Positions 7,994-15,484 are shown, counted from the stretch's first letter. The stretch: 64,000 nt of DNA from a virus (IMGVR_UViG_3300021256_000058:117823-181822); one strand, 5' to 3'. The notes: generated by a model from the letters alone, not told the origin. A program made the numbers and translations.

Positions 7994-10900
7994 TTGGCAC
8001 TCTTCAAAATAAGTCAAGGTAATAGTAGCAACCTCCCTACAAATTATCATAATGGATATTGTTACTTTACTATTGATGAAGGTAAGTTATATATCGACTT
8101 TCCTGGCACAGGAGAAGATCAATAGGTAGTAGATGGCGAAACTTTAATACGCCGTCCATTGAATGCGAACCGTGCGGACTTCGTTGGATACGCTCTTACG
8201 CTCGAGTTTGATGGCGATGCACAGCCTAACTATAATGGTTCTACTCCTCGAACCTATAATATTACTCCAGAAGCAATTAGTGCGGTCCGCCGTAACGGAG
8301 ATACTATTCCAGGTCCATTAACTCTTAATGGCGTGTTCACAGTGAATAATGACGCATACATTGACAGTGCAACTGTAGGCGATTTACTTATCAATGGCGG
8401 GACACGTTTCATCGGAGACGTGAATGCAGGTAAGATTACCGCGTCTAGCTTTGTCGGTCCTCTTACCGGGAACGCCACAAGCGCAGATAAAGTAAACCAT
8501 TATATATCAATTCAAATTAATGGTACAGAAAAAGCTCATTATGATGGTTCGGCTAACCAATCGGTTAACCTGACCGCCGAATCCCTTGGTTTACTTGGAA
8601 ACACTACTAAGTATGCTCTTGGCGATGCAGTAGGCGGTAATGCGGTAGCCGCAAATAAATTAACTGTCAATGCAGGTTCTTTAACTCGTCCAGTTTACTT
8701 CTCTGCTGGTGTACCAGTAGCAATAAGTAATACTGATGAAATTGACTTAATTGCTAAACAAGCAAATAGTGTAAAGGAAAATCTTATTATAGAAGCCAGA
8801 GACACTGAGTTATGGCGTTATAATGGTAGTATTTCCCGCACACTAAATCTTACTCCAAGTTTAATTGGAGCTTTCGATATTATAGAAGGTTCTACTGTCC
8901 AAGGCGAATCTATTTTTAATAATGTAGTTTACTTAAATGATGAAACATATGCTGACTCAATGACTATTGAGAATGCAATCGTCACAGGCGCGCTTCGTGT
9001 AGTTGGTGACTTAAATGGTTCTGTTATTAATGCAACTACATTTAATGGAAATTTGAACGGAAATGCAACATCAGCCAACAAAGTAAATCATTGGTTGAAA
9101 ATCCAATTCGATGGTACAGATAAAGCTCAATATGATGGATCGGGAGATAACAAAACTGTTAATATCACCCCAGCTGCTATTGGAGCTTTGTCTACTACAA
9201 CCAAATATGCTGCTTCCGCATCTGTTGGTGGCTCAGCTCTTAGTGCGGAAAAGCTTAATGCTAATGCTGGCGATGCTACGCACCCAATATATTTCGCAAA
9301 TGGTGTCCCGGTTCAAGTCTCTGGAACCTAGGCTATTAACGTTTCATCTGCGGATAAAGTAAATCATTCTTTGCGAGTTGATTTAGACGGTACCACCGCA
9401 GTCACTTATGATGGTGATACTGAAAATAAAAGTGTAGATATTACCCCAGAAGCAATCAATGCTCTCCGCAATACTACGAAATATGCCGGGTCTAACTCGG
9501 TCGGTGGAGCAGCGATTAGCGCAAATAAATTAAATACAAATGCGGGCGATGCTACACATCCAGTTTACTTTGCTAATGGTGTTCCGGTCCAGGTTTCTGG
9601 TACTTAGGCAATTAATGTAGCAAGTGCTGATAAATTAAATCATTATGTAAGTATTTCAGCCGATGGAACTGAAAAAATCCATTTTGATGGATAGAATAAT
9701 GATTCATTTGATATAACCCCAGAAATAATCAATGCAGTAAGACGTAATGGTGATACGATCCCAGGTCCTCTTACTTTGAACGGGGTATTCACTGTAAATA
9801 ATGATGCTTACATTGATAGTGCTACCATCGGTGACCTCTTGGTTAATGGCGGCACTAGATTCGTGGACGATGTGAATGCAGGAAAAATTACTGCAAACAA
9901 TTTTGTTGGCCCATTAACAGGTAATGCTACAAGTGCGGATAAGGTAAATCATTACGTATCTATTCAAATCAACGGAACTGAAAAGGTTCATTATGATGGT
10001 TCCGCGAATCAGTCAGTGAATTTAACTCCTGAGTCTCTTGGTTTGTTAGGTGCTACAACAAAATATGCACTTGGTGATGCTGTTGGTGGCAATGCGGTCA
10101 AGGCTAACGCGCTGAACGTGTCAGCGGCAATTGGTTCTACGACCCGCCCCGTATACATCCCATCATCTGGCGTTCCCGCAGTAATCAGCAATACCGCTGA
10201 AATTGATTTAATCGCTAAGAAGGCTAATAGCCTTAAAGAGAGTTATATCTATTCATTACGTGGCACTGAACAGTGGCGTTATGATGGTTCTACTCAGCGC
10301 ACTTTGGATATTACTCCAAATGACATGGGTATCTTCGATACACTCGAAGGATCTACTGTTCAAGGCGAATCTGTTTTCAATAACGTCGTATATTTGAACG
10401 ATGAAACTTATGCAGATTCAATGACTATTGAAAATGCTATTGTAACAGGGGCCCTACGTGTTGTAGGCGATCTTAATGGTAGCGTAATTAATGCGACTAC
10501 TTTTAACGGTAGTTTGAATGGCAATGCGACTAGTGCAAATAAAGTTAATCAAACTCTTACTATTGAATTAAATGGTACAGCGCAGCCATCATATGATGGT
10601 AGTATTGCCAGACGTATTGAAATTACTCCTGCTTCAATCGGCGCTTTGGCAAGTACCGCAAACTATGCAGGTAGCTCTTCAACAGGAGGACCTGCAACAA
10701 GCGCCCAAAAGCTGAACACTAATGCAGGTTCAGATATTTTGCCTGTCTACTTTACTGGCGGTGTACCCGCAGCAGTAAGTACATCAAAACAAATAAACAT
10801 TCTTGCTCGTGAGGCAAGTAAAACAACTTATAATTTAGCCATCGCTTTTGATGGCACTAATGCTGTCACTTTTGATGGTAGCACTCAAAATAAATCAATT

Positions 10901-13900: not shown

Positions 13901-15484
13901 TTTGAAGTGACAATGAGCACTACTAACACTGCAGCTAGTGCTTTAACTTTAAATATTCTTAATACTGGTGCTAAACCAATTTGGATTAATGGTCACCCAT
14001 CTTCTGAAACTAATTATGACTTGCCTGCCGGTAAATATATCGTCTATTATGATGATGATAAATATTTATTTACTACAAAAGGTAAAATCCCAGGGTAGGA
14101 TTACATTCATGATATTTACGTTGGTAGTACTACTGGTGGTACTGCAGGACAATATAGTTATTTTAGATTCGCAGCTTTTACTGCTACAACTGGAACTAAT
14201 CCAGTCGCTGGATCAGTAACATATAGAGCCACATATAGATTTAAAGGCGTTAATCCTTTTTAGTTGGGGGCTAATTATACATTTTGGTCATAGGTTACTG
14301 TGTCTACTAATTCTTCTGGAACTACTTCTTTCAGTGCTATAAATAATTGGATTGGAACGCAACCTTATTATAATTATATTTATAGTGCTCCGACAGGAGA
14401 TAACCCGGGTCTATTCTTTGGTAGTTATGGTACTAATCACTATACCGCAGAGATTGAATTAGTATCAGTTGAAAAGGTAATTTCTACTTCTGAGTTAAAG
14501 CCGCTAAATGTCGCAGTAATCACTGATGAAGCACAAGGTTACACTATTGATTTCTTATTATTAAATGATGTCCGTACATCTACTAGCCATTCTGGGTCTA
14601 TTACGACTTTTTAGAGTTATTCGCAATCGTATTACTCTAATTTTGCTTATAATGTTTATCAATATCACGCAGGAGCGAATACTACTGTAAAATACTTTTT
14701 AAGTGGAGCTGGATAGTCAGCTACAGTGAATACTTATAGTAGTCTATTTTCAAGTCAGTGTTATAATGAAAATATTTATTTCTTAAATCAAGAATTATAT
14801 GCTCCTTTGCATGTTGCTAAATTTTATGGCACAGCTGATGTGTCTTACGGAGCAACATTGCCATCTTCACCAACTACTGGACAACTATTCTTCTAGGTTG
14901 GTGGTAGCGGCGGAGGATCTGCAATTACATTAAGCAGTTCAAAAACTTCTGGTAATGCATATGTAACTGGTTATGATGGTTCTGATAATTCAAAACTCTA
15001 TTATAAAACTGGTGTATATATTGATTGTGCTAATAGTGTATTACGTGGAGCAGCATGGAACGACTATGCTGAATTCCGCAAAGACAATGGCGGTGAAAAA
15101 TATACTCAAAAGCCAGGCCGTTGCGTAAAAGAAAATGGCGATGGTTCACTTTCATTGACAACAAAACGTCTTGAACGTGGCTGCGAAATTATTTCTGATA
15201 CATTTGGTATGGCTATTGGTTAGGATGCAGATCATAATGTTCCAATAGCAGTTAGTGGACGAGTTCTAGCCTATACCTTTGAAGAACGTGATATTTATAC
15301 TGCTTATATTGGTTATCCAGTATGTTCTGGACCTAATGGTACTGTAAGTATTATGACTGAGGAAGAAGAAGAAAAATATCCAAGTCGTATTATTGGTACA
15401 GTATCTGAAGTTCCAACTTATGAAACTTGGGGTAGTAATAATCAAGTAAAAGTTAATGGACGAGTTTGGATAAGAATTCGTTAA
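7994..15484 (+). CDS. giant tail fibre of about 2,496 codons, single frame with around 18-20 in-frame TAG
   Basis: A TTG start sits 10 nt after aaaggag. The track pieces 8159.., 9371.., 9776.., 11234.., 12218.., 12839.., 13907.. and 14300.. are all in the same frame. I checked that every junction is TAG only, and the gene ends in TAA at 15482-15484. It contains roughly five tandem protein repeats. Confidence 0.6.
8159..13450 (+). repeat. five in-frame tandem protein repeats of about 1.0-1.45 kb each inside the giant fibre gene
   Basis: The anchor segment LVNGGTRFVGDVNAGKITA..FVGPLTGNATSADKVNH recurs near 8385, 9830, 11030, 12225 and 13265. Core blocks such as VYLNDETYADSMTIENAIVTGALRVVGDLNGSVINATTFNG are identical in protein sequence but differ at many synonymous DNA sites. 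Confidence 0.7.

What the first reader, a model, noticed from the sequence alone, without database searches (positions are those of the whole stretch)
7994..15484. A roughly 2,500-codon tail fibre contains five tandem repeats whose protein sequence is conserved while the DNA differs at synonymous sites
The repeat units are 1.0-1.45 kb. They share blocks of 30-40 identical residues, such as VYLNDETYADSMTIENAIVTGALRVVGDLNGSVINATTFNG, but their nucleotide sequences differ at many third positions. One copy reads gtttacttaaatgatgaaacatatgctgactca, another gtatatttgaacgatgaaacttatgcagattca. This pattern implies either old duplications under strong purifying selection or selection against repeat-mediated recombination. 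The Gln positions alternate between CAA, CAG and TAG among the copies.
Basis: seen in the sequence. Interest (0 to 1): 0.6.

Follow-up and report, generated by a model that had tools for sequence, protein, structure and literature searches.

The report
Old diverged repeats in giant phage fibre
A 2,496-residue phage fibre gene, readable only if the stop codon TAG means glutamine, has a shaft built from five old copies of one module; the copies keep almost the same protein sequence but their silent DNA positions are fully randomised, which is the ordinary outcome of ancient duplication under strong purifying selection.

Summary
Window 7994-15484 (+) is one ORF of 2,496 sense codons, with 18 in-frame TAG and a TAA stop. 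It contains five tandem units spaced 1452, 1191, 1191 and 1041 nt apart; the fifth is partial. Units are 63-86% identical in protein but only 63-72% in DNA. A 47-residue core has 0-1 amino-acid differences and 28-37 of 141 base differences. Silent sites are saturated: pS is 0.67-0.85, and four-fold-site identity is 0.323 against 0.334 expected for unrelated draws. Orthologous units in related phages behave normally (98% aa, 93% nt). TAG=Gln is well supported.

The best explanation is old module duplication or assembly followed by strong purifying selection. This is the same logic as polyubiquitin repeats, set in a modular fibre family whose length varies from 1,300 to 2,496 aa among relatives. 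Tests for copies being more different than random gave marginal, non-robust signals in the window and none in four more distant relatives. Active selection against recombination is therefore possible but not shown. No gene conversion, diversity-generating retroelement signature or recent duplicate was found. The protein is probably a tail fibre with a Peptidase_G2-like C-terminal chaperone domain. This is a new member of a known kind, of modest interest.

The parts
7941..7966 (+). Conserved GC-rich hairpin (CCCTCC...GGAGGG) in the leader of the fibre gene.
   Evidence: RNA fold z = -2.96. The stem is kept in 5 related loci, with one compensatory C-G to U-A pair in L002. Function unknown.
7977..7996 (+). 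Shine-Dalgarno sequence AAAGGAG (7977-7983) and TTG start codon (7994-7996).
   Evidence: The sequence ...GGAGATGCTGAAGATTGGC... is conserved in all related loci. Standard-code homologues begin MALFKI....
7994..15484 (+). Fibre gene: 2,496 sense codons plus TAA. The 18 in-frame TAG codons start at 8123, 9329, 9605, 9692, 11201, 11981, 12464, 12698, 12812, 13697, 13703, 14096, 14261, 14291, 14612, 14714, 14894 and 15221.
   Evidence: TAG=Gln.
7994..8260 (+). N-terminal domain (aa 1-89), conserved across a large fibre family. Presumed virion-attachment end.
   Evidence: The same N-terminus is seen in L002-L006 and in many of the 20 homologues inspected. The role is inferred.
8261..9709 (+). Repeat unit U1 (aa 90-572). 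It contains A block 8261-8527, B core 8909-9049 and an extra 92-aa sub-repeat at 9350-9625.
9710..10900 (+). Repeat unit U2 (aa 573-969). A block 9713-9979; B core 10370-10510.
10901..12091 (+). Repeat unit U3 (aa 970-1366). A block 10904-11170; B core 11561-11701.
12092..13132 (+). Repeat unit U4 (aa 1367-1713). A block 12095-12361; a unit-specific insert with the motif GDTMTGTL, about 12425-12763; B core 12884-13024.
   Evidence: PHROG tail-protein hits for this unit are weak (E 3e-5 and 2e-4).
13133..13480 (+). Partial unit U5 (aa 1714-1829). A block 13136-13402.
   Evidence: It is orthologous to L002_A621 at 98% aa / 93% nt.
13032..13032 (+). Recombination breakpoint relative to the related phage L002. 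Downstream of it, 12.4 kb is collinear at 91% nt. Upstream, the best matches are only 70-80%.
   Evidence: The breakpoint lies in the conserved GNAxxAxKxNH linker between B4 and A5.
13481..15019 (+). Non-repeated distal region (aa 1830-2342). Presumed receptor-binding part.
   Evidence: 92% aa identical to L002 and about 50% to L003-L005. No Pfam, PHROG or PDB match. The role is inferred.
15020..15481 (+). C-terminal domain of about 150 aa (motif AAWNDYAE). It is a remote relative of the Peptidase_G2 intramolecular-chaperone / autocleavage domain.
   Evidence: The domain is found in 49 of 102 homologues. A profile-profile match to the C-termini of the P0006 group gives probability 99.9% and E 2e-33, and that group carries PF11962. 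There is no direct Pfam hit.

Best explanation
The region encodes one very long modular fibre protein, most likely a tail fibre, of a phage of at least 180 kb that reads TAG as glutamine in its late genes.

Shown: the protein has a family-conserved N-terminus and a shaft of five tandem super-modules. Each super-module is an 'A' block, several ~45-residue ADKVNH...DGS...ITP motifs and a 'B' block. After the shaft come a non-repeated distal region and a C-terminal domain remotely related to Peptidase_G2 intramolecular chaperones. The copies are fully saturated at silent sites, so no trace of common ancestry remains there. Amino-acid change is strongly suppressed: dN/dS is about 0.1-0.2 or lower over whole units and about 0 in the 47-residue B core. 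Orthologous units in related phages show normal, matching protein and DNA identity.

Inferred: the modules were duplicated, or joined together, long ago, at least ten times earlier than the split from the closest sequenced relatives. They have since been held by purifying selection because each block is a structural element of a trimeric shaft. With no unit-to-unit exact match longer than 17 nt (26 nt inside U1), the array is a poor substrate for homologous recombination. This explains passively why it is stable in two strains that are 98.8% identical. It does not require selection for dissimilarity.
For: - Single ORF with TAG as sense.
- TAG=Gln: Gln is enriched 9-fold opposite TAG and is the best amino acid by about 98 log-likelihood units. 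There is a CAA/CAG/TAG paralogous column. Strain-level CAA>TAG and CAG>TAG changes occur.
- Repeat anatomy.
- Saturation: pS is 0.67-0.85. Four-fold-site identity is 0.323 (n=928) against 0.334 expected from the local composition, whereas orthologues give 0.69-0.78.
- Purifying selection: the B core has 0-1 aa differences against 28-37 nt differences. Between two strains the repeats show 96 synonymous and 15 non-synonymous changed codons.
- Orthologues behave normally: window U5 against L002 is 98% aa / 93% nt.
- Module number varies among relatives: fibres are 1,300-2,496 aa with 2-5 A blocks in the window, L002 and L003, and B blocks only in the window (4) and L003 (2).
- Internal repeats of four more distant relatives are also at the random-expectation level of codon identity.
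- No intragenic gene conversion: strain alleles match paralogues equally often, 134 against 120 of 370.
- Fibre identity.
Against: - Several tests lean slightly towards 'more different than random' in the window. The column shuffle gives z=-2.0, P about 0.02. The longest exact run between units is 17 nt against 25 expected, P=0.015. GC3 is raised in the repeats, 0.21-0.29 in four of the five units and 0.18 in U4, against 0.13-0.18 nearby. The neighbouring pair U4/U5 has four-fold identity of 0.17.
- No duplicate of young or intermediate age was seen in any of seven fibres, although module number varies.
- All four B cores in the window share residues that differ from the two B cores of L003. 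This requires either lineage-specific duplication or some homogenising force.
- The duplication dates cannot be measured because dS is saturated.
- The tail-fibre assignment is indirect. There is no direct Pfam or PDB hit, and the monomer structure prediction of a unit failed.
Confidence: 0.7

Rival explanations
1. Active second-order selection has pushed synonymous sites of the copies apart, a natural form of codon scrambling. Under this idea no stretch is long enough for the phage's own or the host's recombination system to delete or shuffle units.
For: - Codon identity at identical residues is 0.36-0.46, against 0.52 expected from the codon usage of neighbouring late genes (z -1.0 to -6.3, below -2 in nine of ten pairs) and slightly below the repeats' own usage (z about -2).
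- The longest exact match between units is 17 nt, with none of 20 nt or more (P=0.015 and 0.034).
- GC3 is raised in the repeats and slightly more so at invariant columns, 0.243 against 0.21.
- Adjacent units are somewhat less alike at four-fold sites than non-adjacent ones (0.296 against 0.351, computed).
- The window encodes a Sak4-like single-strand annealing protein.
- Patchy strain divergence shows that homologous recombination is active in this gene.
- No young duplicates were seen anywhere.
Against: - Against the conservative null, all signals are marginal (P 0.015-0.1) and many tests were run.
- The run-length signal vanishes when all repeat diagonals are included: a 26-nt run, P=0.77.
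- L003-L006 show no deficit and no GC3 rise, and L004 and L005 even show excess runs.
- Overall four-fold-site identity equals the random expectation.
- The GC3 rise is also present at variable columns, so it may simply reflect the source or history of this segment.
Confidence: 0.2
2. The array was not made by duplication in place. Homologous shaft modules that had already diverged in different phage lineages were joined head to tail by recombination at short conserved linkers, so the copies were silent-site-divergent from the moment they came together.
For: - The window and L002 are 91% identical for 12.4 kb, but the similarity breaks at 13032 inside the fibre, at the conserved GNAxxAxKxNH linker. 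Upstream modules differ in kind and number.
- The window and L008 (98.8% identical) show sharply bounded divergent patches inside the fibre, with about 12% of codons changed at aa 30-397 and 620-842 and almost none at 843-1960.
- Relatives carry different module sets between the same N- and C-termini.
- No young duplicates were observed.
Against: - Copies within one genome share lineage-specific residues: SMTIENAIVTGAL four times in the window and SLTAENEIVTGTL twice in L003. Copies are also more alike within a genome than between genomes. This is easier to explain by duplication within each lineage.
- U2 and U3 are collinear over 397 residues with identical module order.
- No donor lineage was found.
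Confidence: 0.3
3. Concerted evolution by gene conversion or unequal crossing-over keeps the copies identical in protein.
For: Paralogous B cores are identical within a genome but differ between the window and L003.
Against: - Conversion would homogenise the DNA as well. DNA identity is only 63-72%, with silent sites saturated.
- Strain-variable sites show no bias towards paralogous alleles.
- Unit number and paralogue identity are the same in two strains.
Confidence: 0.03
4. The TAG codons are real stops, so the region is a string of short ORFs or a decayed gene. Alternatively, the differences between copies are made by a reverse-transcriptase (diversity-generating) system.
For: Under table 11 the region breaks into ORFs of 60-475 aa. 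An RVT_1 gene lies upstream of the fibre in relative L002.
Against: - There are 2,496 codons with no TAA or TGA, and all 18 stops are TAG.
- The frame and the TAG positions are conserved in orthologues, and TAG aligns with Gln.
- Strain changes are about 7:1 synonymous in the repeats.
- No template/variable repeat pair was found in L002.
- Mismatches are mainly at third positions and involve all base pairs, not adenine specifically.
Confidence: 0.01

Closest known systems
Polyubiquitin tandem coding repeats. The debate between purifying selection with birth-and-death evolution (Nei, Rogozin & Piontkivska 2000) and concerted evolution (Sharp & Li 1987) is summarised in PMC10457151.
   Same: Head-to-tail coding repeats encode (near-)identical peptide while accumulating many synonymous differences. 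The same question arises: strong purifying selection or homogenisation.
   Different: The units here are 347-484 aa and form parts of one structural fibre rather than releasable monomers. Identity is confined to blocks. Silent sites are completely saturated, and no sign of homogenisation was found.
Mosaic, modular phage tail fibres whose segments are swapped at short conserved motifs, such as T-even gp37/gp38 and P2/Mu-type fibres (cited from my own knowledge, not checked here).
   Same: The ends are conserved and the middle is variable. Recombination breakpoints lie at conserved linkers, and length varies among relatives.
   Different: No sequence relationship to those fibres was detected. 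This fibre repeats the same super-module five times and is written in a TAG=Gln code.
Gut phages with the TAG stop codon recoded to glutamine in structural and lysis genes (Borges et al., bioRxiv 10.1101/2021.08.26.457843).
   Same: In-frame TAG is concentrated in the late/structural block (1579-18883), while most replication genes are TAG-free. TAG aligns with Gln.
   Different: The clade is not identified. The DNA polymerase is only about 38-39% identical to those of Enterococcus, SPbeta-like and Phass-1 phages. No suppressor tRNA lies within the 64-kb window.
Fibres and appendages with a C-terminal intramolecular chaperone / autocleavage domain (Pfam PF11962 Peptidase_G2, as in the phi29-type pre-neck appendage).
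   Same: The C-terminal ~150 aa match the PF11962-bearing C-termini of homologues profile-to-profile, and the WN(x)DYAE motif is shared.
   Different: There is no direct Pfam hit. Cleavage is untested. Foldseek on the predicted domain gave only non-significant matches to capsid decoration and head-fibre bases.
Engineered synonymous scrambling of repetitive genes to prevent deletion (Wu et al. 2015, PMC4403262).
   Same: The end state is the same: repeated protein encoded by non-repetitive DNA.
   Different: There it is deliberate design. Here the state is explained by age, and selection for it is unproven.

Membership tests
TAG-to-Gln recoded phage (translation table 15-like) | Long ORFs appear only when TAG is read as sense, and TAA/TGA are absent from them. 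| tested here: met
   2,496 codons contain 18 TAG and no TAA or TGA. Neighbouring late genes each contain 5-17 TAG.
TAG-to-Gln recoded phage (translation table 15-like) | TAG positions align with glutamine in homologues. | tested here: met
   Gln is 9-fold enriched opposite TAG and has the best likelihood, by about 98 units. There is a CAA/CAG/TAG column. CAA>TAG and CAG>TAG changes occur between strains.
TAG-to-Gln recoded phage (translation table 15-like) | Recoding is concentrated in structural/lysis genes, while replication genes use the standard code. | tested here: met
   together with the annotations. There are a few exceptions, for example 42661-43689.
TAG-to-Gln recoded phage (translation table 15-like) | A phage-encoded suppressor tRNA(CUA). 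| tested here: not met
   ARAGORN finds no tRNA in the 64-kb window. The genome is at least 180 kb, so one may lie elsewhere. The cited survey detected them in only about 40% of such phages.
Phage tail fibre | Sequence membership in an annotated tail-fibre family. | tested here: inconclusive
   No Pfam hit was found. The PHROG hits are weak: minor tail protein at E 3.4e-5 and tail fibre at 2.2e-4, both for unit U4. Homologues carry PF12789 (phage tail repeat) and PF11962.
Phage tail fibre | Conserved attachment end, variable middle and distal end, and a position in the structural gene block next to adhesin-like genes. | tested here: met
   The N- and C-termini are shared across the family. The neighbours are Laminin_G_3 and DUF285/LRR proteins.
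Phage tail fibre | A trimeric beta-rich shaft fold. | not testable with these tools
   The monomer AlphaFold2 model of U2+A3 has pLDDT 38. No multimer prediction is available.
Peptidase_G2-type intramolecular chaperone domain (PF11962) | A match to the family profile. | tested here: inconclusive
   The direct hmmscan is negative. The indirect profile-profile link to PF11962-bearing homologues gives probability 99.9% and E 2e-33, although both profiles have low diversity.
Peptidase_G2-type intramolecular chaperone domain (PF11962) | Autoproteolytic release after trimer folding. | not testable with these tools
   This needs protein chemistry.
Tandem coding repeats under purifying selection (birth-and-death type) | Synonymous divergence between copies far exceeds non-synonymous divergence. 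| tested here: met
   pS is 0.67-0.85 and pN 0.11-0.27 over whole units. In the B core pN is about 0.
Tandem coding repeats under purifying selection (birth-and-death type) | Orthologous copies are closer than paralogous copies at the DNA level, and copy number differs among relatives. | tested here: met
   U5 against L002 is 93% nt identical, while paralogues are 70-75%. The number of modules differs among the window, L002 and L003.
Concerted evolution of tandem repeats | Copies within a genome are homogenised at the DNA level. | tested here: not met
Diversity-generating retroelement target | A template/variable repeat pair with adenine-specific mismatches next to a reverse transcriptase. | tested here: not met
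   The differences involve all base-pair types and fall mostly at third positions. No template/variable pair was found in L002, which has an RT gene. The window itself was not scanned for an RT gene.

The most novel reading that the evidence does not exclude
The repeats are kept maximally unlike at the DNA level by selection. Under this reading, a phage that carries its own annealing recombinase and recombines frequently with relatives has evolved natural 'codon scrambling', including use of otherwise rare C/G-ending codons and of TAG for Gln. This would hold five near-identical protein modules in one gene without losing them to recombination.
Probability: 0.2. Interest if true: 0.6.

Novelty: new member of a known kind. 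Interest (0 to 1): 0.3.

Why it matters
The finding gives a clean, quantified example of how very long repetitive structural genes persist in highly recombinogenic phage genomes. Protein-level repetition is decoupled from DNA-level repetition.

It also supplies in-gene evidence that TAG encodes glutamine in an unclassified phage of at least 180 kb. It defines an unannotated fibre family (MALFKI... N-terminus, A/B shaft modules, AAWNDYAE C-terminal domain) that current Pfam and PHROG models miss and that standard gene callers fragment.

If the marginal 'more different than random' signals were confirmed on many genomes, this would be evidence that recombination avoidance shapes codon choice. 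As it stands, the pattern needs no new mechanism.

Tried and rejected
- Structure of a repeat unit: the AlphaFold2 monomer model with a 5-row paralogue alignment had pLDDT 38 and was unusable, so no fold search was run on it.
- C-terminal domain: the model had pLDDT 66.6. The best Foldseek PDB match was E 0.015, to capsid decoration and phi29 head-fibre base proteins. This is not significant and was not used.
- Pfam, PHROG and PDB sequence searches of the fibre found no usable family.
- Searches for relatives in GenBank phages, IMG/VR, JGI metagenomes and GTDB genomes (one chance hit) found none. Relatives came only from Logan and ENA assemblies through protein searches.
- Maximum-run 'recombination-length avoidance' test: significant with the unit alignment but not with all repeat diagonals. 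It was rejected as not robust.
- Raised GC3 as proof of diversification: the rise is region-wide and not specific to invariant columns.
- Gene conversion between units was rejected.
- The diversity-generating retroelement idea, prompted by the RT gene in L002, was rejected.
- Direct BLASTP of the C-terminus against a PF11962-bearing homologue was not significant. Only the profile-profile comparison links them.
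Full report
**1. What is at 7994-15484**

Under the standard bacterial code the region breaks into ORFs of 60-475 aa. Translated in one frame it gives 2,496 sense codons. These are interrupted only by 18 TAG codons and end at a TAA. There is no in-frame TAA or TGA, and the next upstream stop is TGA at 7988. The whole plus-strand block 1579-18883 behaves the same way, with 5-18 in-frame TAG per gene. Most minus-strand genes from 20 kb onward are TAG-free. 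These include a Pol III-alpha-type DNA polymerase, NrdD, an NAD ligase, topoisomerase II, a Dda-like helicase, a primase and a Sak4-like annealing protein. This layout has been described for gut phages that recode a stop codon in late genes (bioRxiv 10.1101/2021.08.26.457843). No tRNA lies in the window.

**2. TAG means glutamine**

In alignments of four late proteins from the window and related loci, Gln is the residue most enriched opposite TAG (9-fold, 44 of 269). Gln's substitution profile explains the TAG columns better than any other amino acid by about 98 log-likelihood units. Inside the repeats one column reads CAA/CAG/TAG in U1/U2/U3, and two more columns pair TAG with a Gln codon. 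Between two strains that are 98.8% identical, two of the three TAG/non-TAG changes in the fibre are CAA>TAG and CAG>TAG.

**3. The repeats**

The repeat finder reports five copies spaced 1452, 1191, 1191 and 1041 nt apart at 70-75% nt identity.

- The units are U1 (aa 90-572), U2 (573-969), U3 (970-1366), U4 (1367-1713) and a partial U5 (1714-1829).
- Each unit starts with an 'A' block (ITPEAINAVRRNGDTIPGPLTLNGV..NNDAYIDSAT..GNATSADKVNH). There are five copies.
- Four units contain a 'B' block whose 41-residue centre is identical in all four copies.
- U1 carries an extra 92-residue sub-repeat.
- U4 carries a unique ~110-residue insert with the fibre-typical GDTMTG motif.

The corrections are that the quoted block occurs four times, not five, and that the fifth unit is partial.

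**4. How diverged the copies are**

- Pairwise aa identity is 63-86%, nt identity 63-72% and third-position identity 0.35-0.46.
- Nei-Gojobori pS is 0.67-0.85, at or past saturation, and dN is 0.12-0.34.
- In the 47-residue B core there are 0-1 amino-acid differences but 28-37 of 141 base differences. These include TCN/AGY serine switches at two invariant serines.
- At four-fold degenerate sites, paralogue identity is 0.323 (n=928). The expectation for independent draws from the repeats' own composition is 0.334. Orthologues in the window and L002 give 0.69-0.78.

The silent sites therefore retain no signal of common ancestry.

**5. Relatives**

No relative exists in GenBank phages, IMG/VR, JGI metagenomes or GTDB genomes. 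Protein searches recovered six related loci from Logan and ENA assemblies. All share the TTG start, the Shine-Dalgarno sequence, the MALFKI... N-terminus and the ...NGRVWIRIR C-terminus. Their fibres are 1,300-2,496 aa long and carry different sets of shaft modules.

- L008 comes from a 180.5-kb contig. It is 98.8% identical to the window over 17.7 kb and has the same five units.
- L002 is 91% identical from window 13032 to 25461, but upstream of 13032 only 70-80% similar to anything in the window. The break falls in the conserved GNAxxAxKxNH linker.
- The last A block is orthologous between the window and L002 at 98% aa and 93% nt, whereas paralogues are 87-93% aa and 70-75% nt. The paralogue divergence is therefore far older than the split of these phages.

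**6. Is the DNA more different than chance?**

- *Codon identity at identical residues.* Observed values are 0.36-0.46. Codon usage of neighbouring late genes predicts 0.52 (z -1.0 to -6.3 per pair, below -2 in nine of ten pairs). The repeats' own usage predicts 0.44-0.45 (mostly not significant). A column-wise shuffle gives z=-2.0, P about 0.02.
- *Longest exact match.* Between aligned units the longest run is 17 nt, against 25 expected (P=0.015). There are no runs of 20 nt or more, against 3.4 expected (P=0.034). When all internal repeat diagonals are included, a 26-nt run inside U1's sub-repeat appears and the test is null (P=0.77).
- *GC3.* It is higher in four of the five repeat units (0.21-0.29; U4 is 0.18) than in flanking late genes and the fibre's own C-terminal part (0.13-0.18). 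The rise is also seen at variable columns (0.217), compared with 0.243 at invariant ones.
- *More distant relatives.* Four of them (L003-L006) have internal repeats that are equally saturated but show no deficit and no GC3 rise. Two show excess runs.
- *Overall four-fold-site identity* equals the random expectation.

The copies are as different as unrelated draws. Evidence that they are more different than that is marginal, confined to this lineage and sensitive to definitions.

**7. Other mechanisms examined**

- *Gene conversion or concerted evolution.* This is excluded by the DNA divergence. In addition, strain-variable sites match paralogous alleles equally for both strains (134 against 120 of 370), and paralogue identities are unchanged between strains.
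- *Diversity-generating retroelement.* An RT gene lies upstream of the fibre in L002, but no template/variable pair exists there. The mismatches between units are mainly at third positions and involve all base pairs.
- *Recombination with other phages.* This clearly acts on the gene. Besides the L002 breakpoint, the window/L008 comparison shows sharply bounded patches with about 12% of codons changed (aa 30-397 and 620-842) next to about 1,100 nearly invariant codons. Changes in the repeats are 96 synonymous to 15 non-synonymous.

It therefore remains open whether the units arose by duplication in place or by joining modules that had already diverged in different lineages. In favour of lineage-internal duplication, all four B cores of the window share SMTIENAIVTGAL, while both B cores of L003 share SLTAENEIVTGTL.

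**8. What the protein is**

There is no Pfam, PHROG or PDB family for most of the protein. Support for a tail fibre comes from five observations:

- weak PHROG tail hits for U4;
- homologues carrying PF12789 and PF11962;
- the GDTMTG motif;
- an N-terminus and a C-terminal domain shared by a large family of fibres with variable middles;
- neighbouring genes for Laminin_G and DUF285/LRR proteins.

The last ~150 residues match the PF11962-bearing C-termini of homologues profile-to-profile (probability 99.9%, E 2e-33), although not Pfam directly. This suggests a Peptidase_G2-like intramolecular chaperone. The monomer structure prediction of a unit failed. The fold search on the C-terminal model was not significant.

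A search of 1.84 billion representative proteins with U2 found 826 proteins at E of 1e-3 or below but only 12 at 1e-30 or below. Most matches fall in the generic ADKVNH...ITP...KLN.NAG...PVYF part. The small motifs are therefore widespread, while the A/B super-module is rare.

**9. Verdict**

The most economical explanation is old duplication or assembly of shaft modules followed by strong purifying selection. DNA-level dissimilarity then protects the array passively. This is the polyubiquitin-type pattern (PMC10457151) in a modular phage fibre written in a TAG=Gln code. Active selection for synonymous dissimilarity is an attractive but unproven addition, with a probability of about 0.2. The finding is a new member of a known kind and of modest interest.

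Noticed in passing
window 1579-18883 (+) versus 19700-64000 (-): The late/structural block is full of in-frame TAG (5-18 per gene). The replication and nucleotide-metabolism genes on the other strand are almost all TAG-free. This is the known split-code layout of recoded phages.
   Followed up: partly
window 7941-7966 (and up to 7993): A conserved GC-rich hairpin (CCCTCC...GGAGGG) lies just upstream of the fibre's Shine-Dalgarno sequence. It is kept in five related loci, with one compensatory pair in L002. A second predicted stem flanks the ribosome-binding site. It may be a translational or processing signal for this late gene.
   Followed up: partly
window 1665-7801 compared with L008 3997-8841: The Laminin_G-domain genes immediately upstream of the fibre have no megablast match between two strains that are otherwise 98-99% identical on both sides. 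They look like a swapped adhesin-like cassette.
   Followed up: no
L002 509-1819: A reverse-transcriptase (RVT_1) gene with 9 in-frame TAG sits directly upstream of the fibre in this relative, where the window has Laminin_G genes. No template/variable repeat pair was found in the 16 kb available.
   Followed up: partly
window 15500-18883 (+): The next gene encodes about 1,128 aa with 15 TAG and is DUF285/BspA-like in relatives. In relative L002 the orthologous gene has an internal repeat that is only about 71% identical in DNA, so diverged repeats may not be unique to the fibre. No repeat passed the 70%-identity diagonal scan in the window's copy.
   Followed up: partly
window 42661-43689 (-): This is an exception within the 'standard-code' region: a ~340-aa ORF with 11 in-frame TAG. 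It has an N-terminal membrane segment, a long coiled-coil-like stretch and a C-terminal GIY-YIG-like motif (GIYKI...YVGQ).
   Followed up: no
window 7994-15484 compared with L008: Strain divergence inside the fibre is patchy. About 12% of codons are changed at aa 30-397 and 620-842, almost none at aa 843-1960, and 3.6% in the C-terminal part. This indicates recent import of patches by homologous recombination.
   Followed up: yes
window 39927-40925 (-): A Sak4-like single-strand annealing protein, meaning the phage carries its own recombination function. This is relevant to the stability of repeats.
   Followed up: no
window 22628-23899 (-); L002 13395-14645; L003 14532-15794: A ~420-aa gene in the early region is annotated in relatives as a xanthine/uracil permease (PF00860). 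A nucleoside 2-deoxyribosyltransferase and a dUTPase lie nearby. A nucleobase transporter is unusual cargo for a phage.
   Followed up: no
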